The notes: generated by a model from the sequence alone, not told the origin. A DNA stretch of 64,000 nt from Candidatus Nomurabacteria bacterium (GCA_023898585.1 CP060229.1:594149-658148); one strand, 5' to 3'; counted from the stretch's first letter, positions 4,067-27,415 are shown. Program-made: numbers and translations.

Positions 4067-5077
4067 TCAATTAACCTTACTAGCTACGTACTCATCAGGG
4101 CGATTGGCCAAAAGTTCTTCCAATTCCTCGCGCGTTAAAAGCCCTGTTTGGGCGCCGATATGTTGCACTACATTCATGGAATTGATTGGTCCCCAAGACA
4201 ATGCTTCAGCCGGATCTTTGCCTAGTATGATGGCTGAGGTGAAGGTGGATGAGAAAGAGTCTCCAGCTCCAGTACGGTCAACCGGCGGGGCGGGGTCCGG
4301 ATACATCGGCATGTACCAAGCTTGGTCATCAGTGTCTACAGTGTAGGCGCCATTTGGACCGTCGGTAATAACAGGAATCGTAGGACCGAGTTCTCTGATG
4401 GCGCGAATAAGAGTAGGAATATGCTGTTCGTCGGTTTTTAATATTTCTTGCGCTTCTTCTTTGTTACAGAAGAATATTTCCGTGTTTTTGTAAACGTCGG
4501 AAATCTCCTCAATTCCGACTTTAATCTGAAAAGTTCCCGGCTGGAACGCCAATTTGGTCTCATTGTTTTTTACGTATTCGGCGATTTCGTGGTGATAGGG
4601 TATGCCGTGTTCGCCAACCGAGGAAAAGTAAAAGAATTTCGGTGCGACTGGGAAGTCGGGTAAGGAATAAGGATAATGTTCGTGGTTGATGAGAATGGTT
4701 CTTTCCGGTCCGTAGCGAAGGACGTAATGGTAATTGGTCACTTTGCCTTCATGAATTTTTACAAAATCAGTGTACACGCCCTCTTTCCGTAAAGCTTCCA
4801 AACATTCTTTGCCAAACTTGTCATGACCCAAGTTTGTGACCAATCCTGTCTCGAGACCCAATCTATGAGCGGAAACAGAGGCGTTTGGCGAATTGCCGAC
4901 TGCCGGTATTACCACTACGTTATCGTAGGGTAACTTACTTCCAAAAGGCATGTGGAGGGTTTTTCTGCCTGTGTCTAAATCGACCGAAACATCCGCCTGA
5001 TCTATATTTAACTGTATAAACGCATCAATGAGAATATCTCCGATCGCGACAAAATCATATTGTTGTGACATATACAA
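4067..5077 (-). CDS. PfkB-family carbohydrate kinase (ribokinase-like)
   Basis: 336 aa. N-terminal DFVAIGDILID and C-terminal TGAGDSFSSTF (PfkB signature 2). Confidence 0.75.
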   Translation of the reverse strand: MYMSQQYDFVAIGDILIDAFIQLNIDQADVSVDLDTGRKTLHMPFGSKLPYDNVVVIPAVGNSPNASVSAHRLGLETGLVTNLGHDKFGKECLEALRKEGVYTDFVKIHEGKVTNYHYVLRYGPERTILINHEHYPYSLPDFPVAPKFFYFSSVGEHGIPYHHEIAEYVKNNETKLAFQPGTFQIKVGIEEISDVYKNTEIFFCNKEEAQEILKTDEQHIPTLIRAIRELGPTIPVITDGPNGAYTVDTDDQAWYMPMYPDPAPPVDRTGAGDSFSSTFTSAIILGKDPAEALSWGPINSMNVVQHIGAQTGLLTREELEELLANRPDEYVASKVN

Positions 5078-21283: not shown

Positions 21284-22348
21284 TTACTTAATGAACGATG
21301 CTGTTTTTACGAATCTGTCATTCAGTGAGTTTCTGTCAGTTGCTTCATCTATCGTCACTACGAATTCATGGATCGGATCTTTGTTGGTAGAGAAACCAAC
21401 AGCCAGCACTGCCCGCTCATTTGGTTTTAGTGGTTTTTGTTTTTCCGAGGAATAGGTACTACCATCAGGCAAGGTCACTTTAAAGTCCCACTCCTTTGAA
21501 GTTTTCGAACCGAGATTTATGACTTCAAACTGAATGGCACCGTTACTGTTTTGCTTTATTGGTCCAGTGTAAAAAGCACCACTTTTAATTGTTCCCAAAT
21601 TTAAGAATTTTGTCGATAAGTCGGTACGACCATTGGGGTCCGAGACAGGGATAGTATAGATGAATTTTTGCTCATAAGTCGGTTTGGACGGCTTTGTAGC
21701 GACAGTAGCAACTGTGTCAGTTGTGGTTTCTGTATCGGTCTCTTCCTCGGTTTCGAATTCCGTCTTTGTCGATGCGTCACCGTTGTCATCGGTTGCGAAA
21801 ACACTTTTCCTCTCGCTGTTAACAACGGTGATTGAGGCAGAGCCACTGTTTCGTGGCGTGGTGTCGTTGGTAGCCAGAAATGACACAGTATATTCGACGT
21901 CGGAATAACGGTCCTTCTCTGAGTCTATTGTCAGAGTAAGAGAATTCACATCACCAACATTGTAGTTTGTGTCGCAGGCAATGTTACGGATGCCTTCGAT
22001 ATTGGTTATATCGACAGCGACTCCCTCGCGACACTTATAAGAGAAGGTGAAACTGCCTTGTGTCTCTGTTTTGCCCCATGAAATATTTACGCTATCACCA
22101 GCGCTAATCAGGGTGTTGTCGCTACTTACCAACAATGGATTCTCGGTAGCGTCGCTAGTGTCATTCGTATTCAACCTTTGACCTTGATTTATTCCCTCGG
22201 CTAAGGAAGCAAGGGACGAAAAAGCGCCGGGCAAGACGTTTACCAACTGTATTGAAAGCCAAGCTATTAAAACGATAATACCGATAAAACCGGCGACTGC
22301 CAGAGATTTGAGAACCGAATCTTTTTTGTTTTGTGTAGCATCATTCAT
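21284..22348 (-). CDS. Membrane-anchored extracellular protein with T/E-rich linker (354 aa)
   Basis: N-terminal TM anchor, Thr/Glu/Asp low-complexity linker and beta-rich segments. No catalytic motif. Confidence 0.5.
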   Translation of the reverse strand: MNDATQNKKDSVLKSLAVAGFIGIIVLIAWLSIQLVNVLPGAFSSLASLAEGINQGQRLNTNDTSDATENPLLVSSDNTLISAGDSVNISWGKTETQGSFTFSYKCREGVAVDITNIEGIRNIACDTNYNVGDVNSLTLTIDSEKDRYSDVEYTVSFLATNDTTPRNSGSASITVVNSERKSVFATDDNGDASTKTEFETEEETDTETTTDTVATVATKPSKPTYEQKFIYTIPVSDPNGRTDLSTKFLNLGTIKSGAFYTGPIKQNSNGAIQFEVINLGSKTSKEWDFKVTLPDGSTYSSEKQKPLKPNERAVLAVGFSTNKDPIHEFVVTIDEATDRNSLNDRFVKTASFIK

Positions 22349-22488: not shown

Positions 22489-22516
22489 TTGACTTTTGGT
22501 GAAGTAATGCTATAAT
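22489..22516 (+). promoter_or_regulatory. Strong sigma70-like promoter (TTGACT-16-TATAAT) upstream of sortase
   Basis: Consensus hexamers read directly. Confidence 0.55.
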
Positions 22517-22543: not shown

Positions 22544-23272
22544 ATGAACACCATTTTCGAAAAGATATGGGAGAAAAAGTTTGTGTTTTTGGGCACGTTT
22601 TTTCTGGTGTTCACTTTGTCATACATTGTCCTTCTGGCCGTTGATTTCTTACCCGAGCCGGTAACTAAAACAGAAGAATCAAAATCAGGGACCGACCAAG
22701 AGTCCTCCAAAGAATCTGCATCCGAATTGGATACTGAAGATGTTGAAGCGGTTGATGTATCGGGTGATGACATCTCCGCTCTTGAGATTGAATCAACGTC
22801 AACAGAGGATTTAGCAGTCAACGATAGTGAAGCGGTGAAACCAATCAGGATCGCGATCGCTAAAATTGACAAGGACATAGCTGTTCTTAATCCCACTTCT
22901 CGCACCATAGCCGACTTGGACGAGGCGCTACTTGGTGGTGTCGTAAGACATCCCGACTCAGCCACTTTGGCCCAAGAAGGTAACGTTTTTATTCTCGGCC
23001 ACTCCAGTTATCTGCCTAAAGTCTTCAATAAAAATTTTCAAGCATTTAATGGTATTCAAAATCTTGAATGGGGAGATGTGATTGAGGTTTATTCTGAGGA
23101 TTCTGTATACAAATACCAAGTGGTAAAAGTTTACCGAGCCAAGGCCAATGATGTGACAGTTCCTATCGCCGGGACAGGTAAAATGCTTACCTTGGCAACC
23201 TGCAACAGCTTTGGTAGTACCGACGATCGGTATATAGTGGAAGCAAAACAGATAGAGGTGGAAACCATCTAG
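22544..23272 (+). CDS. Sortase-family cysteine transpeptidase
   Basis: N-terminal TM anchor, acidic linker, His motif (FILGHSS) and catalytic TLATC (TLxTC) followed by Arg. Confidence 0.8.
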   Translation: MNTIFEKIWEKKFVFLGTFFLVFTLSYIVLLAVDFLPEPVTKTEESKSGTDQESSKESASELDTEDVEAVDVSGDDISALEIESTSTEDLAVNDSEAVKPIRIAIAKIDKDIAVLNPTSRTIADLDEALLGGVVRHPDSATLAQEGNVFILGHSSYLPKVFNKNFQAFNGIQNLEWGDVIEVYSEDSVYKYQVVKVYRAKANDVTVPIAGTGKMLTLATCNSFGSTDDRYIVEAKQIEVETI

Positions 23273-23435
23273 CAACTTGACAAAAGGTGAATTTACGGTA
23301 CATTATTAAATAATAGTGTTCTCCCGGTTGTACGGTTTATTTATTTAGTTCGTTTTCCTTGACGCATGTTTCTTTGTTGTTTCGTAAGCTTTGTTACTCT
23401 TGTGTATATATGGTGTAGGCAGGAGTATTAATTTT

Positions 23436-26400
23436 ATGAATAACCAAGATACTCGCATTATGAAAAAATATTCAAAGACCATTGCCAGTGTGATGGTGGT
23501 TTTTGCTATGACACTGTCAGCTGTGGCAAACCCATTTCTAACTGTGGCGGCATTCGATCAGTTTGATTCCCAATTTGGTTTTGACAATTCCTTTAATTTT
23601 GACAAGGACTTCGAATTTTCAAATTCTCAAGGATCGTCGAATGGAAACACTTTCGAATCCACCACTCCCGGTCAGGTGATAACCTCATCATCAGAGACAT
23701 TCACCGAATGTGTTCTCGAAGCTAGTCACGATGTTGTGACGGTGGGAGACAATATTACTCTCAACTGGCGAACCAGTGGTTTTGACAGTATCACTATCAA
23801 CGGCCAGTCTGTTTCTGGTAACAGTGGTTCTAAAGTCATTACCAATTTGCGTGAAAACTCCACTTTTACACTGCAGGCCTTGAGCAACAGTGGTTCAAGT
23901 TGTTTTCAGCAAGTACAAGTTACTTGTCTTCCTCCGGAAGAGCCGAAGGAATGTAAGCTTGAGATTGAGAAGACGGTAAACACGACTACCGCCGTACCGG
24001 GCGATAATCTTACCTATACAATCACGGTAAAAAATACCGGTGACGCCGACTGTACCGGAGGAGGGGTAAAGATCGAAGATGTAGTTGATAATAACCTGAG
24101 TTATTTGAGCCACCAATTAAGCGGTAATTTCAGTGCCGGTTACGGAGGTGATCCTGTCTACACCACCAACAATCGCACTCTGCATTTTAATGGCAATGTT
24201 CTAAATCCCGGTGAATCAGGAACTATTACTTGGATCGGTAAAGTAAACGCCCCCACTCAATGTGGAGACTTCCAGGTGAAGAATCAAGCCAAGGCTTCTG
24301 CCAAGGAACTAAATAATTTTCAGAGTTGGGTATACAGTCAAACTGTAAAAACTGACATTGATAATGATTGTCCGGAACCGGACGGGTGTGTGCTTGATGT
24401 CGATAAGACGGTAAACAAAACCACCGCTGTACCAGGTGATAACCTCACTTACACCATCACGGTAAAAAATACCGGTGACACCGATTGTACCGGGAGTGGT
24501 GTTTTGATTGAGGATGTGGTTGATCCGAACATCAGTTACCTGAGTCATAGTTTGAGCAATGATTTCCTCGCCGGATATCTTAATATTCCTGTCTACACCA
24601 CCAACAATCGCACTCTGCATTTTAATGGCAACATCTTGACTCCCGGTGAATCAGGAACCATTTCTTGGGTCGGTAAAGTCAGCGCTCCTAATCAGTGTGG
24701 TGATTTTGAAGTTACAAACCAAGCCAAAGCAACGGCTGTTGAGTTGGATAATTTTCAGACTTGGGCATATAGCCAGGTTGTAAAAACTGTTGTCGATAAT
24801 GACTGTGTGGTTGAGGATGAATTCGCCACAGTGGTTGCTCATAAAATTGTTTGTTCAAACGAGGCTGAATTGCCGAATTACGGTAACGATGGTCCGAACA
24901 TTACATCCAACACCGCTACCGATTGGGTTGCTACTCACAACAGTTGTTCACTGGTTTCCGGATGGGAATTCGAATGGACCGACAACCAAATCAACGACCC
25001 CGGCGACACACTGATCGGCCGGGCCGGTTCACCTTGGAACACTTTTGGTCCAACTGATGGAAACGGAAAAACTTCAACCGTGATCAATCTAACCAATTTG
25101 ACAAACGACCAAGTTTGGTTCAGGGAAGTGTTGCAAAATGGATATATTCCATTTACTCATGGAGCAAACGCCGGAACGAATATTGATAATGTTTCAGCTG
25201 AATTCTATTGTGGCAGTGACGTTATTAACTATGACAATCGAGATTATATACAAGGAATGCAAGATGATGGTGTCTATTATTGTGTAGCTTGGAATTCTCC
25301 GATACCAGAGGTACCCGCTCCAACCTGTGATTTGTTCACAGCCAATCCAACGGCCATAACCGCAGGCGACAGTTCGACTCTAACTTGGGAGACATCGCAT
25401 GCTAGTCAAGTCTTCTTGAATAATGGCATCGGAGAGGTGGCACACGACGGCTCTATAGCTGTTTCTCCTCTAGCCGATATTGTCTACAAACTTACTGTTA
25501 TTGGAGAGGAAGACAAGCGAGTTGAATGTGAAGTTCCTATTAATGTCTCTCTCGATTCGGTACCGGTTTGTGAATTGTTCACCGCGACTCCCAATTCACT
25601 TCCGTACGGAGGAGGAAGTGTGGCCTTGAATTGGAAAGTTTCTAATGCTTCCCAAGTGTCCATCTCTCCTTTGGTCGGTTCTGTTGAATTGATCGGCACA
25701 CGAAATGTAAATGTAGCGGAAGGTACCACTTTCATTTTAACTGCGACTGATGACAATGGAGACAAGGTGACTTGCCCGGCTCCGGTTGCTGTGGCTGATC
25801 CGGAACCAGATCCTATCACATGTCAAAACAACGTCTCTTTCTCTGCTTCTGACACGTCCATCAGACGAGGTGGTTCATCCACTCTTACTTGGAGCACGAC
25901 CGATATCGACTCAGTGTCTATAAGTGGTATAAACGAAACTTCGTTGTCAGGAAGTAAAAAAGTTTCACCCTCAAATGATATCACTTACACTTTAACCGCA
26001 ACAAAAGGGAATAATTCAATAAACTGTCCGGTTTCGATTGATGTTTCGAGTGGTGGTGGCGGTGGAGGAAGTGTGTCACCAAGTTGTGAGTTGGATATTT
26101 CTGATACCAAAATTAAAGCTGGTGAGAAAATCACTTTGGAGTGGGACACATCAAGAGCGACCGAAGTAACACTGACAGACGACAAAGGTAAGGTTCTGTT
26201 TACAACGGATGATTACCTAGCTAAGGATAAAGTTGATTATTACGATGGCTCGATCACCCTGAAGCCAACCCGAGACACCGAATATACACTGTTGGCGGAA
26301 CGAGGTTCAAGAGACGAAGAGTGTAAAGTAAAAGTTAAAGTCGAGGATGACGTGGTTGTTTTACAAACTAGAGACCAGCAACCATTGGTAGCCGGCATCT

Positions 26401-27341
26401 CTCTAAGTCAAGTGCCATACACCGGATTTGAAGCAGGTCCGATCATGACCGCTATGTTCTACATTCTTTTGATTGCTTGGGCAGTGTACGTCAGTTACCT
26501 GTTGGTGATACGAAGACAGGTGTCTTCAGTTGGTGGGGGAGGAGGTGAAGTGTTTTCCGTTAAAGAAGAAAAAAAAGCATCAATGCGACAGAAGGAGGAG
26601 TCAGTACGACCCGACGTATTTGTAGCTTCTGTTACGACAAGTCCCGCTCCGTCTGATGTCACCCCGGCTAATTTACCAACCGGTATGCCTGTTATCGGCT
26701 ATGAAAATCACATTGAAGATGAGGGTGATGGTGAGACTGACGAGACAAACCCGCATCAAGTTGATGACGCTTTTGTCACCGCTTTGGAGAATCGCGCTCA
26801 CAGTCAAAAAGCACTTTTGTCCAGCGATGCTGTACGGTACTTTATTGGAACAACTACAAATGAGGCGGAACGTAATGAAATACTTGATGTTGTTATCAAA
26901 GAAGCAAAAAACAATTATCCGCTTGAGGACGGTTGGATTGTGATAAATGAATCAAGAATGCGAAACCTTTGTGAAGTTTGTAAAAACAATAAGCAATCAT
27001 CGGAATTCTCATCGTTTATCCCTGCTGTTGTGCCGGAAGGCACTGGCTCTCTTGCGGAAGCAATTGTAACCGGTAACGTGGTCGCCGCTTACCAAATGAT
27101 CGGCAATCGACCAATGTTTGCTTTGGCTGATGCTTCGGCCGATCTTGACGCTCTGTATCGACAGAGGAAAGGAGGCAAAGAGCAAGTCTCAAATCTCTTG
27201 AAAAAGGAGTCAGAGAAATTGTCTGATGAAAAAATAAAAAATATGATTTCAGCTTTGACCGGGGCGTTAGATGGTGTATATACCGATGAAGCGTCTGCGG
27301 TAAAGATGGCGATCATGAAAGCAGTTAAGGAAGTATCGTAA
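23436..27341 (+). CDS. Giant (about 1300 aa) secreted surface protein with two DUF11-type repeat domains, Ig-like repeats, a VPYTG sorting-like signal, TM helix and an unusually long (about 280 aa) C-terminal domain
   Basis: ATG 13 nt after AGGAG. Signal peptide KKYSKTIASVMVVFAMTLSAVA. Two copies of KTVNxTTAVPGDNLTYTITVKNTGD[AT]DCTG..EDVVD..SYLSH (DUF11-like). QVPYTG followed by the hydrophobic segment IMTAMFYILLIAWAVYVSYLLV and RRQ. The ORF then continues to 27341. Confidence 0.7.
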   Translation: MNNQDTRIMKKYSKTIASVMVVFAMTLSAVANPFLTVAAFDQFDSQFGFDNSFNFDKDFEFSNSQGSSNGNTFESTTPGQVITSSSETFTECVLEASHDVVTVGDNITLNWRTSGFDSITINGQSVSGNSGSKVITNLRENSTFTLQALSNSGSSCFQQVQVTCLPPEEPKECKLEIEKTVNTTTAVPGDNLTYTITVKNTGDADCTGGGVKIEDVVDNNLSYLSHQLSGNFSAGYGGDPVYTTNNRTLHFNGNVLNPGESGTITWIGKVNAPTQCGDFQVKNQAKASAKELNNFQSWVYSQTVKTDIDNDCPEPDGCVLDVDKTVNKTTAVPGDNLTYTITVKNTGDTDCTGSGVLIEDVVDPNISYLSHSLSNDFLAGYLNIPVYTTNNRTLHFNGNILTPGESGTISWVGKVSAPNQCGDFEVTNQAKATAVELDNFQTWAYSQVVKTVVDNDCVVEDEFATVVAHKIVCSNEAELPNYGNDGPNITSNTATDWVATHNSCSLVSGWEFEWTDNQINDPGDTLIGRAGSPWNTFGPTDGNGKTSTVINLTNLTNDQVWFREVLQNGYIPFTHGANAGTNIDNVSAEFYCGSDVINYDNRDYIQGMQDDGVYYCVAWNSPIPEVPAPTCDLFTANPTAITAGDSSTLTWETSHASQVFLNNGIGEVAHDGSIAVSPLADIVYKLTVIGEEDKRVECEVPINVSLDSVPVCELFTATPNSLPYGGGSVALNWKVSNASQVSISPLVGSVELIGTRNVNVAEGTTFILTATDDNGDKVTCPAPVAVADPEPDPITCQNNVSFSASDTSIRRGGSSTLTWSTTDIDSVSISGINETSLSGSKKVSPSNDITYTLTATKGNNSINCPVSIDVSSGGGGGGSVSPSCELDISDTKIKAGEKITLEWDTSRATEVTLTDDKGKVLFTTDDYLAKDKVDYYDGSITLKPTRDTEYTLLAERGSRDEECKVKVKVEDDVVVLQTRDQQPLVAGISLSQVPYTGFEAGPIMTAMFYILLIAWAVYVSYLLVIRRQVSSVGGGGGEVFSVKEEKKASMRQKEESVRPDVFVASVTTSPAPSDVTPANLPTGMPVIGYENHIEDEGDGETDETNPHQVDDAFVTALENRAHSQKALLSSDAVRYFIGTTTNEAERNEILDVVIKEAKNNYPLEDGWIVINESRMRNLCEVCKNNKQSSEFSSFIPAVVPEGTGSLAEAIVTGNVVAAYQMIGNRPMFALADASADLDALYRQRKGGKEQVSNLLKKESEKLSDEKIKNMISALTGALDGVYTDEASAVKMAIMKAVKEVS

Positions 27342-27375
27342 TCAAACTAAGGGTTACCCTTCGTAGCCAAAAAAC

Positions 27376-27415
27376 AAAAGAGGCGCGCCCTTGGGTGCGC
27401 CTCTTTTGTTTTTTG
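27376..27415. terminator. Bidirectional terminator between the surface-protein gene and thrS
   Basis: AAGAGGCGC-gcccttgggt-GCGCCTCTT with A-run and T-run flanks. Confidence 0.7.

What the first reader, a model, noticed from the sequence alone, without database searches (positions are those of the whole stretch)
26380..27341. Sorting-signal-like element is internal: about 280 aa of soluble domain follows the TM helix and RRQ stop-transfer
Canonical sortase substrates end within roughly 10 residues of the charged tail. Here the ORF continues uninterrupted for about 280 aa (Gly5 linker, acidic stretch, helical domain) after ...VPYTG...LLVIRRQ. Three readings are possible: (i) a bitopic protein whose cytoplasmic domain is liberated or retained after sortase cleavage, a signalling-like logic; (ii) a sequencing or frameshift fusion of two genes; (iii) a coincidental motif in a single-pass membrane protein.
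Basis: seen in the sequence. Interest (0 to 1): 0.55.

Follow-up and report, generated by a model that had tools for sequence, protein, structure and literature searches.

The report
Sortase substrate carrying a cytoplasmic domain
A large surface protein of a tiny Patescibacteria bacterium has its cell-wall sorting signal in the middle of the chain, followed by a conserved intracellular domain; dozens of related species share this layout, so cleavage by the neighbouring sortase probably makes two working proteins from one gene.

Summary
ORF 23391-27341 (+) runs without interruption through ...SQVPYTG-FEAGP, a 23-residue TM helix, RRQ, and then 273 more residues. It is not an assembly or frameshift artefact. 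In 68 of 80 species-level genomes of related Patescibacteria the same single ORF occurs (xPxTGF + TM + linker + C-domain). The profile search finds mostly 600-1930 aa proteins with this module at the C-terminus. A sortase gene lies just upstream in 74 of 75 loci.

The motif is not coincidental: P, T, G and F are invariant in 69 of 69 species. In some relatives it ends a textbook sorting signal (...VPYTGFEAGP-TM-KKKVS*).

The tail is an ~80-residue disordered linker plus a ~190-residue helical domain. That domain has no Pfam or NCBIfam family. Its predicted fold resembles the lid and collar domains of clamp-loader subunits, without an ATPase core.

The tail domain also occurs without any ectodomain (2-TM forms). 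In seven species it sits in the -1 frame behind an A7 or A9 run, which suggests recoding.

Best reading: sortase cuts VPYT|G, the variable adhesin goes to the wall, and a conserved membrane-tethered cytoplasmic protein remains. Cleavage and the domain's function are inferred, not shown.

The parts
21284..22348 (-). Conserved ~350 aa membrane-anchored protein (N-terminal TM, extracellular part), transcribed divergently from the sortase. No known family.
   Evidence: ORF. No Pfam or NCBIfam family. A tblastn homolog sits in the same position and orientation in almost all related loci.
22489..22516 (+). Promoter-like site (TTGACT-16-TATAAT, 11 of 12 matches, TG extension) in front of the sortase gene.
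   Evidence: This is a consensus match only.
22544..23272 (+). Sortase gene (242 aa) with an N-terminal TM anchor and catalytic motifs ILGHS, TLATC and DDRYIV.
   Evidence: PF04203 at 70.8 bits against a cutoff of 26.6. Below the curated cutoffs of classes C, D, E and GN. Motifs. Upstream on the same strand in 74 of 75 loci.
23391..27341 (+). The whole precursor gene (1316 aa from TTG; likely start at ATG 23436 or 23460).
   Evidence: A promoter-like site lies at 23277-23304.
23460..23528 (+). Sec-type signal peptide (MKKYSK + hydrophobic TIASVMVVFAMTLSAVA).
   Evidence: Read directly from the sequence; hydrophobic segment found.
23958..24740 (+). Two DUF11/CARDB-type Ig-like repeats within the hypervariable distal ectodomain (aa ~40-890).
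   Evidence: PF01345 E 1.3e-21 and TIGR01451 E 3.6e-18. The distal ectodomain is a median of only 15% identical to 64 full-length homologs.
26052..26411 (+). Gly6 hinge, then the conserved membrane-proximal repeat ending in RDQQPLVAGISLSQ.
   Evidence: Median 57% identical across 64 homologs; per-position conservation.
26412..26426 (+). VPYTG, a sortase-type pentapeptide. The predicted scissile bond lies between T (26421-26423) and G (26424-26426).
   Evidence: VPYTGF in 65, VPHTGF in 2, TPYTGF in 1 and IPYTGF in 1 of 69 loci. Cleavage is inferred, not shown.
26427..26519 (+). FEAGP, a 23-residue TM helix and the RRQ stop-transfer. The helix is conserved in sequence: F, Y, L, W and Y are invariant.
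   Evidence: positions +15, +16, +19, +22 and +28 are invariant in 69 of 69. AF2 helix at residues 21-51 of the model.
26520..26765 (+). Disordered cytoplasmic linker: Gly5 at 26532-26546, an A8 run at 26569-26576, the conserved short motif P-x-NLP-x(6)-GY at 26664-26702, and an acidic stretch.
   Evidence: pLDDT about 46-60. Consensus PxNLPxxxxxxGY. Only 24% identical across homologs. Coordinates.
26766..27338 (+). Conserved ~190 aa all-helical cytoplasmic domain (ENRAH, EDGW, GSLAEAI, RPMFALADA, LDGxYTDE). It consists of a lid-like subdomain plus a helical bundle. No described family.
27370..27413 (+). Strong hairpin terminator (20-pair stem) shared with the convergent thrS gene.

Best explanation
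This is a genuine single gene of a Patescibacteria (Paceibacteria/Kaiserbacteria-type) bacterium. It encodes a two-part precursor.

Shown: the architecture is real. The sorting-signal-like element, its TM helix and the tail domain are strongly conserved. A sortase gene is always next door. The tail domain also exists on its own.

Inferred mechanism: the signal peptide sends the chain through Sec. The TM helix with RRQ stops transfer, leaving the ~270-residue tail in the cytoplasm. The adjacent sortase cuts VPYT|G at the outer membrane face and attaches the fast-evolving Ig-repeat ectodomain to the cell wall. The 304-residue remnant (GFEAGP, TM helix, disordered linker, helical domain) stays behind as a membrane-tethered cytoplasmic protein.

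This remnant is the conserved core of the locus and is separable from the ectodomain. Its helical domain looks like the lid and collar half of an AAA+ clamp-loader subunit without the ATPase. It is therefore more likely a partner-binding or oligomerising module than an enzyme. The sequence-conserved TM helix probably docks to the sortase or to another membrane partner. One gene would thus deliver a wall-anchored adhesin and, in 1:1 ratio, an intracellular factor.
For: - Continuous ORF.
- The fused layout occurs in 68 of 80 species-representative loci, in full-length L002, and in most of the top 150 profile hits.
- Motif and flanks are nearly invariant, and five TM residues are invariant in 69 of 69.
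- Sortase lies upstream on the same strand in 74 of 75 loci.
- Synteny gyrB / 350-aa protein / sortase / this gene / thrS / dnaE is conserved.
- Relatives L003, L007 and L080 end the surface protein canonically...VPYTGFEAGP-TM-KKKVS*. The element is therefore a true sorting signal.
- Tail-domain autonomy: 2-TM forms have neither ectodomain nor motif, yet sit right after an intact sortase (L001, L074, L076). A mini form has about 30 aa of ectodomain (P0074). Split or recoded forms exist.
- Conservation profile: distal ectodomain 15%, last repeat 57%, sorting signal 67%, linker 24%, tail domain 61%.
- Cytoplasmic location: positive residues after the TM helix; no signal peptide in front of the tail-domain ORF of split forms such as P0087 and P0103.
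Against: - No experimental or proteomic evidence for cleavage.
- The LPXTG-anchor model of NCBIfam does not hit. The sortase scores below every curated class cutoff.
- In 2-TM species the motif is lost while both sortase and tail domain persist. Whatever the tail domain does, it does not strictly need cleavage.
- The fold resemblance is moderate (Foldseek E 0.011). It has no sequence-level support: the PDB profile search found nothing, and hhalign against RarA gave 0.1% probability.
- No partner of the tail domain has been identified.
Confidence: 0.6

Rival explanations
1. The tail (TM helix plus cytoplasmic domain) is a sortase accessory or sorting factor, not an independent product. It would hold the precursor and present it to the sortase. 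Alternatively it would stabilise or regulate the sortase in the membrane, as SafA does for actinobacterial SrtA. The remnant would have no role beyond sorting.
For: The gene sits directly after the sortase. In 2-TM species the two nearly abut: 10 nt between the called genes in L001, and the module's open frame overlaps the sortase ORF by 18-85 nt. The TM helix is conserved far beyond what a generic sorting signal needs. The sortase TM is also similar among the loci read. SafA precedent: PMC9282373.
Against: The sortase has only about 12 cytoplasmic residues, so a 190-residue cytoplasmic domain has little of it to bind. In recoded relatives the 0-frame product is a complete canonical substrate without the tail, so the tail is not needed in cis. 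There is no FPW motif and no similarity to SafA.
Confidence: 0.2
2. The protein is never cleaved. It would be a bitopic adhesin or receptor whose cytoplasmic domain links surface binding to the cell interior, like an integrin. VPYTGF would be conserved for a structural reason.
For: The layout is that of a type I membrane protein. The juxtamembrane F-x-x-G-P and the TM helix are partly kept in 2-TM forms that lack the P-x-TG motif.
Against: The xPxTG consensus is strictly kept, with P, T and G in 69 of 69. A sortase with intact catalytic motifs is adjacent in 74 of 75 loci. The same element ends canonical substrates in relatives. The motif disappears exactly when the ectodomain disappears (2-TM forms).
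Confidence: 0.15
3. Artefact: two genes (a surface protein and a cytoplasmic protein) were fused by a sequencing or assembly error that removed a stop codon or shifted the frame near 26500-26560.
For: A few relatives do have a stop after the charged tail with the domain in another frame.
Against: Dozens of independent assemblies of different species have the same in-frame fusion. The window's post-TM linker aligns in frame with them. There is no frame change in the window. The split cases are a minority, and most need a -1 shift at an A-run to restore the common layout.
Confidence: 0.01
4. Coincidental motif in an ordinary single-pass membrane protein.
For: P-x-T-G is short, and the LPXTG-anchor HMM does not hit.
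Against: It is the only such element in 64 kb. It is next to a sortase. It is invariant across 69 species.
Confidence: 0.02

Closest known systems
Canonical LPXTG-type cell-wall sorting signals of Gram-positive sortase substrates
   Same: N-terminal signal peptide. x-P-x-T-G pentapeptide followed within 5 residues by a hydrophobic helix and a positively charged stop-transfer. A cognate sortase is encoded next door. Relatives carry the same element at a true C-terminus.
   Different: The chain continues for 273 residues after the charged tail, with a conserved folded domain. The motif is VPYTG rather than LPXTG, LAXTG or NPQTN. The TM helix is conserved in sequence. The organism is a Patescibacteria member, and its sortase fits no curated class.
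C-pep sensing in Streptococcus gordonii: the membrane remnant of LPXTG adhesins is sensed by the SGO_1180 two-component system (as summarised in PMC11326707)
   Same: The C-terminal remnant left in the membrane after sortase cleavage is used by the cell rather than discarded.
   Different: In S. gordonii the remnant is a ~30-residue peptide read by a separate histidine kinase. Here the remnant would itself carry a 190-residue cytoplasmic domain. No kinase or regulator is linked to it.
SafA, the small TM protein encoded next to the housekeeping sortase of Actinobacteria (PMC9282373)
   Same: A conserved membrane protein genetically coupled to a sortase gene. The 2-TM forms (L001, L074, L076) occupy the same position immediately downstream.
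   Different: SafA is a small TM protein with an exoplasmic FPW motif and no large cytoplasmic domain. No sequence relationship was seen, and the mechanism (signal-peptidase antagonism) is untested here.
Domains II and III (lid and collar) of clamp-loader subunits gamma/tau, delta and delta', and AAA+ lid domains in general
   Different: No ATPase domain. No sequence-level similarity. The domain is membrane-tethered. The resemblance is at fold level only.
dnaX-type recoding: -1 frameshift at A AAA AAG in E. coli, transcriptional slippage at an A9 run in Thermus, and poly(A) slippage that rescues genes in endosymbionts (own knowledge)
   Same: In relatives (not in the window) an A9 or A7 run, which includes A AAA AAG, separates a short 0-frame product from a long -1-frame product. 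This arrangement is conserved across species.
   Different: Here the 0 frame gives the short product and the shift gives the long one. No conserved stimulatory RNA structure was found at the A9 sites. Expression of either product is untested.

Membership tests
Sortase substrate with cell-wall sorting signal (LPXTG type) | x-P-x-T-G pentapeptide | tested here: met
   VPYTG at 26412-26426. P, T and G invariant in 69 of 69 homologs.
Sortase substrate with cell-wall sorting signal (LPXTG type) | Hydrophobic membrane-spanning segment shortly after the motif, followed by a positively charged tail | tested here: met
   A 23-residue helix starts 5 residues after G, followed by RRQ.
Sortase substrate with cell-wall sorting signal (LPXTG type) | Signal located at the extreme C-terminus (stop within about 10 residues of the charged tail) | tested here: not met
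   273 residues follow RRQ. The feature is met only in the 0-frame products of relatives L003, L007, L080 and L103.
Sortase substrate with cell-wall sorting signal (LPXTG type) | N-terminal secretion signal | tested here: met
   MKKYSK + TIASVMVVFAMTLSAVA at aa 24-46. Judged by eye and hydropathy; no dedicated predictor was run.
Sortase substrate with cell-wall sorting signal (LPXTG type) | Match to the curated LPXTG-anchor profile | tested here: not met
   The NCBIfam scan of the whole protein and of the last 320 aa returned only TIGR01451.
Sortase substrate with cell-wall sorting signal (LPXTG type) | Actual cleavage between T and G and linkage to peptidoglycan | not testable with these tools
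   Needs biochemistry or proteomics.
Sortase (neighbouring gene 22544-23272) | Sortase domain with catalytic His, Cys and Arg | tested here: met
   PF04203 at 70.8 bits against a cutoff of 26.6. ILGHS, TLATC and DDRYIV present.
Sortase (neighbouring gene 22544-23272) | Membership in a curated class (C, D, E, GN) | tested here: not met
   Best scores are 50 bits (class D, LPxTATN-specific; cutoff 140) and 40 bits (class E; cutoff 160).
AAA+ clamp-loader subunit (gamma/tau, delta, delta') | P-loop or RecA-like domain I | tested here: not met
   The folded part starts at the lid-like subdomain. Only a disordered linker and a TM helix precede it. No AAA Pfam hit.
AAA+ clamp-loader subunit (gamma/tau, delta, delta') | Lid plus helical collar fold | tested here: met
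AAA+ clamp-loader subunit (gamma/tau, delta, delta') | Sequence-profile relationship | tested here: not met
   Profile search against PDB sequences: 0 hits at E up to 10. Pfam scan of 121 members: no consistent family. hhalign against RarA: 0.1% probability.
SafA (sortase-associated factor) | Small TM protein with an exoplasmic FPW motif, encoded directly downstream of the housekeeping sortase | tested here: not met
   The position matches. There is no FPW motif, and a 270-residue cytoplasmic part is present. Feature definition from PMC9282373.
Programmed -1 frameshift / transcriptional slippage gene | Slippery homopolymer at which a -1 shift joins two conserved reading frames | tested here: not met
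   Not met in the window: the gene is in frame, and a shift at its A8 run (26569-26576) would only truncate it. Met in relatives L003, L080, L007, L082, L083, L085 and L087.

The most novel reading that the evidence does not exclude
Sortase cleavage is used here as a processing or signalling step, not only for wall anchoring. It would generate, or change the state of, a membrane-tethered clamp-loader-like (AAA+ lid and collar) module. That module would couple the display of a hypervariable adhesin to a cytoplasmic machine, for example an AAA+ or replication-associated partner. Some lineages would tune the ratio of adhesin to intracellular module by programmed -1 slippage at an A-run placed exactly at the end of the sorting signal. 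This would be a previously undescribed use of the sortase pathway, and it would be a core feature of a large class of Patescibacteria.
Probability: 0.12. Interest if true: 0.85.

Novelty: new variant of a known kind. Interest (0 to 1): 0.62.

Why it matters
Sortase substrates are defined by a C-terminal sorting signal, and the membrane remnant is normally a throw-away peptide. Here a whole lineage of ultra-small, uncultivated bacteria has placed a strongly conserved, undescribed cytoplasmic domain on that remnant. The locus sits in a core-genome neighbourhood next to the sortase. If the cleavage model holds, one gene yields a wall-anchored, fast-evolving adhesin and an intracellular factor in fixed proportion. 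That would be a new way to link surface and interior in organisms that live attached to other cells.

There are also practical consequences:
- Predictors that require the signal at the C-terminus will miss this entire substrate family.
- The tail domain deserves a family definition.
- The A-run variants are candidate natural recoding sites in Patescibacteria.

Tried and rejected
- Pfam, NCBIfam, PADLOC and PHROGs on the tail, and Pfam on all 121 family members: no family.
- Profile search against PDB sequences: nothing.
- hhalign against RarA, the AAA+ gene that follows the 2-TM forms: 0.1% probability.
- The afdb50 fold library was unavailable.
- Search for a second sortase substrate in the window: none.
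- Search for dnaX or holB in the window or in the loci, to test homology with the tail: none found.
- Test of whether A-runs are a general feature of the linker in fused genes: no. Five of 71 loci have one, 0.20 per kb, equal to background. The window's A8 run therefore carries no evidence of function.
- Metagenome scan for the A-run junction: one further family member (L103, A9) and no A8 or A10 variants.
- RNA structure downstream of the A9 sites: not significant.
- Many 'domain-only' hits of the first protein search turned out to be contig-edge truncations (P0014, P0018), a scaffold gap (L006), or random frameshifts (L122, L078). They are not counted as evidence for free-standing genes.
- CxxC motif as a metal site: present in only 46 of 71 fused forms, so it is not a defining feature.
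- Literature: no paper in the library mentions VPYTG as a sorting motif, and a keyword search turned up no description of an internal sorting signal followed by a cytoplasmic domain.
Full report
**1. What is in the window**

ORF 23391-27341 (+) encodes 1316 aa. Its parts, in order (coordinates):
- a Sec-type signal peptide (aa 24-46);
- a long ectodomain with two DUF11/CARDB-type repeats (PF01345 E 1.3e-21, TIGR01451 E 3.6e-18) and further Ig-like repeats;
- a Gly6 hinge (26052-26072) and a last repeat ending in RDQQPLVAGISLSQ;
- VPYTG (26412-26426) and FEAGP;
- a 23-residue hydrophobic helix (26442-26510) and RRQ (26511-26519);
- Gly5, and then 260-odd more residues to the stop codon.

In total, 273 residues follow RRQ. 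There is no stop or frame change.

A six-frame scan of the whole 64 kb finds only this one P-x-[TSA]-G + hydrophobic element. Immediately upstream (22544-23272) lies a sortase gene: PF04203 at 70.8 bits, with catalytic ILGHS, TLATC and DDRYIV motifs. It falls below the curated cutoffs of every sortase class. A strong terminator follows the stop codon at 27370-27413, and nothing terminator-like separates RRQ from the tail.

**2. Is the fusion real?**

A search with the last 320 aa found 152 proteins, and those named by a source are Patescibacteria (Kaiserbacteria, Paceibacterota).

A scan of one genome per species returned 80 loci. In 68 of them the tail domain lies in the same ORF as [VIT]P[YH]TGF plus a TM helix; the complete ORFs are about 640-1457 aa. 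Three loci are a short 2-TM form, seven are split, one is unclear and one is a contig fragment.

A profile search of 1.84 billion representatives gave 671 hits. Most of the best 150 are 600-1930 aa with the module at the very C-terminus.

Several apparent 'domain-only' proteins from the first search are explained by other causes: contig edges, a scaffold gap, or a miscalled start on a full 773-aa ORF (L002). The assembly or frameshift reading is therefore rejected.

**3. Is the motif meaningful?**

Across 69 in-frame loci the element reads RDQQPLVAGISL(T/S)Q-VPYTGF-EAGP. P, T, G and F are invariant. Five TM residues (F, Y, L, W, Y) are also invariant, which is far more conservation than a generic sorting signal needs.

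A sortase homolog lies upstream on the same strand in 74 of 75 loci with enough flank. The wider gene order is also conserved: pheT, gyrB, a ~350-aa membrane protein on the minus strand, the sortase, this gene, then thrS and dnaE on the minus strand.

In L003, L007 and L080 (and metagenomic L103), the surface protein ends as a textbook sorting signal...VPYTGFEAGP-TM-KKKVS*. The element is therefore a genuine sortase-type sorting signal that in most species is internal. The 'coincidental motif' reading is rejected.

**4. What follows the TM helix?**

AF2 with a 121-sequence alignment gives three regions:
- a TM helix;
- a disordered linker of about 80 residues (pLDDT about 46-60), which carries a conserved short motif P-x-NLP-x6-GY (window 26664-26702);
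- a confidently folded all-helical domain of about 190 residues (pLDDT about 90; window 26766-27338).

Invariant residues of the domain lie in ENRAH, LLSSDA, EDGW, GSLAEAI, RPMxALADA and ALDGxY..E.

No Pfam, NCBIfam, PADLOC, PHROGs or PDB-sequence relative exists.

The domain thus looks like an AAA+ lid plus a helical collar without any ATPase core. This is a fold-level resemblance only. hhalign against the RarA gene that neighbours some family members gave 0.1% probability.

**5. The tail is the conserved, separable part**

Identity of window segments to 64 full-length homologs:

| Segment | Median identical |
|---|---|
| Distal ectodomain | 15% |
| Last repeat | 57% |
| Sorting signal | 67% |
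| Linker | 24% |
| Tail domain | 61% |

Three species (L001, L074, L076) have only a short hydrophobic N-terminus, a G-x-x-G-G-P turn, the homologous TM helix and the tail domain. They have no ectodomain and no P-x-TG motif, yet the gene sits directly after a sortase gene; the H, C and R motifs were confirmed in L001 and L074.

One contig encodes a mini form: signal peptide, about 30 residues, VPYTGL, TM helix and tail (P0074).

The ectodomain can therefore shrink to nothing while the TM helix and tail persist. The motif disappears only when there is nothing left to sort.

**6. Split forms point to recoding, not to separate genes**

- In L003/L080/L007/L103 the junction is (I/L/V) AAA AAA AAG GTT TCY TAG. 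This is an A9 run that contains A AAA AAG.
- In L082/L083/L085 an A9 run lies about 70 codons after the TM helix.
- In L087 an A7 run follows the TM helix.

In every case the tail domain is in the -1 frame. Adding one A (equivalent to a -1 shift) restores a 286-301-residue post-motif product, the same size as in fused genes (266-328). A +1 shift does not.

The -1-frame peptide across the junction is homologous to the in-frame sequence of fused relatives. Codons upstream of the first Met vary synonymously in the -1 frame.

Independent assemblies keep the same frame structure (L004, L005, L008).

The A9 sites have no significant downstream RNA structure, which favours transcriptional slippage. 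L087 has a hairpin of -32 kcal/mol (z -6.5) starting 8 nt downstream, which is typical of a frameshift stimulator.

Two other split cases (L078, L122) are random single-base frameshifts. They are probably errors or decay.

For the window, the implications are these: the fused state is the reference state, the short canonical substrate is viable on its own, and the tail is not needed in cis for sorting. The window's own A8 run (26569-26576) would only truncate the protein if slipped. A-runs are not enriched in the linkers of fused genes.

**7. Mechanism**

Shown:
- the architecture, its conservation and the synteny with the sortase;
- the autonomy of the tail domain;
- cytoplasmic placement, supported by the positive-inside rule and by the lack of a signal peptide in front of the tail-domain ORF of split forms.

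Inferred:
- Sec export with stop-transfer;
- cleavage at VPYT|G by the adjacent sortase;
- wall attachment of the variable adhesin;
- persistence of a 304-residue remnant (GFEAGP, TM helix, linker, domain) as a membrane-tethered cytoplasmic protein, whose helical domain binds a partner or oligomerises.

I put about 0.6 on this overall picture: about 0.97 on the architecture being real and about 0.7 on cleavage.

The main rivals:
- The tail is a sortase accessory or presentation factor, analogous to SafA (0.2).
- The protein is an uncleaved bitopic receptor (0.15).
- Artefact or coincidence (0.02 or less each).

**8. Comparison with known systems and novelty**

The system works like a sortase substrate, but it fails the defining 'extreme C-terminus' feature and the LPXTG-anchor profile.

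The nearest functional precedents are:
- the S. gordonii C-pep circuit, in which the membrane remnant is sensed by a two-component system (PMC11326707);
- SafA next to actinobacterial srtA (PMC9282373).

Neither involves a folded cytoplasmic domain on the remnant.

Literature searches found no description of this layout or of VPYTG as a sorting motif. Méheust et al. (PMC6744442) only note that sortases are common in CPR bacteria.

I rate it a new variant of a known kind, of moderately high interest. It is a lineage-wide, core-genome feature with an undescribed domain family. The candidate recoding sites in relatives add a further point of interest.

Noticed in passing
L003 7962-7970; L080 7132-7140; L007 7034-7042; L103 1622-1630; L082 4122-4130; L083 1355-1363; L085 1454-1462: A9 runs at which the 0 frame stops within 2-5 codons, while the -1 frame carries the conserved tail domain. 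This is conserved across species whose tail domains are 57-79% identical. These are candidate transcriptional-slippage or -1 frameshift recoding sites in Patescibacteria.
   Followed up: yes
L087 7132-7138 and the 60 nt downstream: An A7 run (CGA AAA AAA GAA) directly after the TM helix, with the tail domain in the -1 frame. A very stable hairpin (-32 kcal/mol, z -6.5) starts 8 nt downstream. This is the classic layout of a -1 frameshift cassette.
   Followed up: partly
window 26569-26576: An A8 run in the linker (GAA GAA AAA AAA GCA). A slip in either direction would end the protein 16-27 codons later and give a short-tailed substrate. A-runs are not enriched at this place in fused homologs, so there is no evidence that it is used.
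   Followed up: yes
window 21284-22348 (-): A ~350 aa protein with an N-terminal TM anchor and an extracellular part, with no known family. It is conserved in the same divergent position next to the sortase in almost all related loci, so it may be a third component of the system.
   Followed up: partly
L001 9176-10330; L074 8039-9241; L076 7909-9126: In all three 2-TM species a RarA/MgsA-type AAA+ ATPase gene follows the tail-domain gene directly. It is absent from that position in the window. No sequence similarity to the tail domain was found (hhalign 0.1%).
   Followed up: partly
L125 64-1095 (P0074): A mini variant: signal peptide, about 30 residues, VPYTGL, TM helix and tail domain. In-frame stop codons upstream show that it is not a contig-edge truncation. 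The motif is kept although there is almost nothing to anchor.
   Followed up: partly
window 26970-26981 (CEVC): A CxxC motif at the end of the lid-like subdomain. It is present in 46 of 71 fused and 3 of 3 2-TM forms and absent from all split forms and 25 fused forms. It is a clade-specific feature of unknown meaning.
   Followed up: partly
window 26664-26702: A conserved short linear motif P-x-NLP-x6-GY sits within the otherwise variable, disordered cytoplasmic linker. It is kept in fused, 2-TM and split forms, so it may be a docking or processing site.
   Followed up: no
L002 2633-4159: A GC-rich, Arg/Ala-rich 508-codon open frame lies between the sortase and the substrate gene. It is unlike the surrounding AT-richer Patescibacteria DNA. 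It may be foreign DNA or a chimeric assembly.
   Followed up: no
L003 6258-6707; L007 4878-5339: A small secreted protein (149-153 aa) with a conserved C(P/K)EYTGW segment is inserted between the sortase and the substrate gene in the recoded lineage. No TM helix follows the segment, so it is not a sorting signal.
   Followed up: no
L122 about 4930-4960; L078 about 4560-4600: Single-base frameshifts that are not at A-runs: one inside the TM-coding region (T4 read as T3) and one in the linker. These are probably sequencing errors or decaying copies.
   Followed up: partly
L062, L063, L070 (record titles): These contigs carry the Patescibacteria-type locus (sortase, substrate) but belong to MAGs titled Patiriisocius, Acidimicrobiales and Azotimanducaceae. 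They are probably mis-binned or mislabelled.
   Followed up: no
window 27370-27413: A 20-pair GC-rich hairpin flanked by an A-run and a T-run, between the convergent substrate gene and thrS. It looks like a bidirectional terminator.
   Followed up: no
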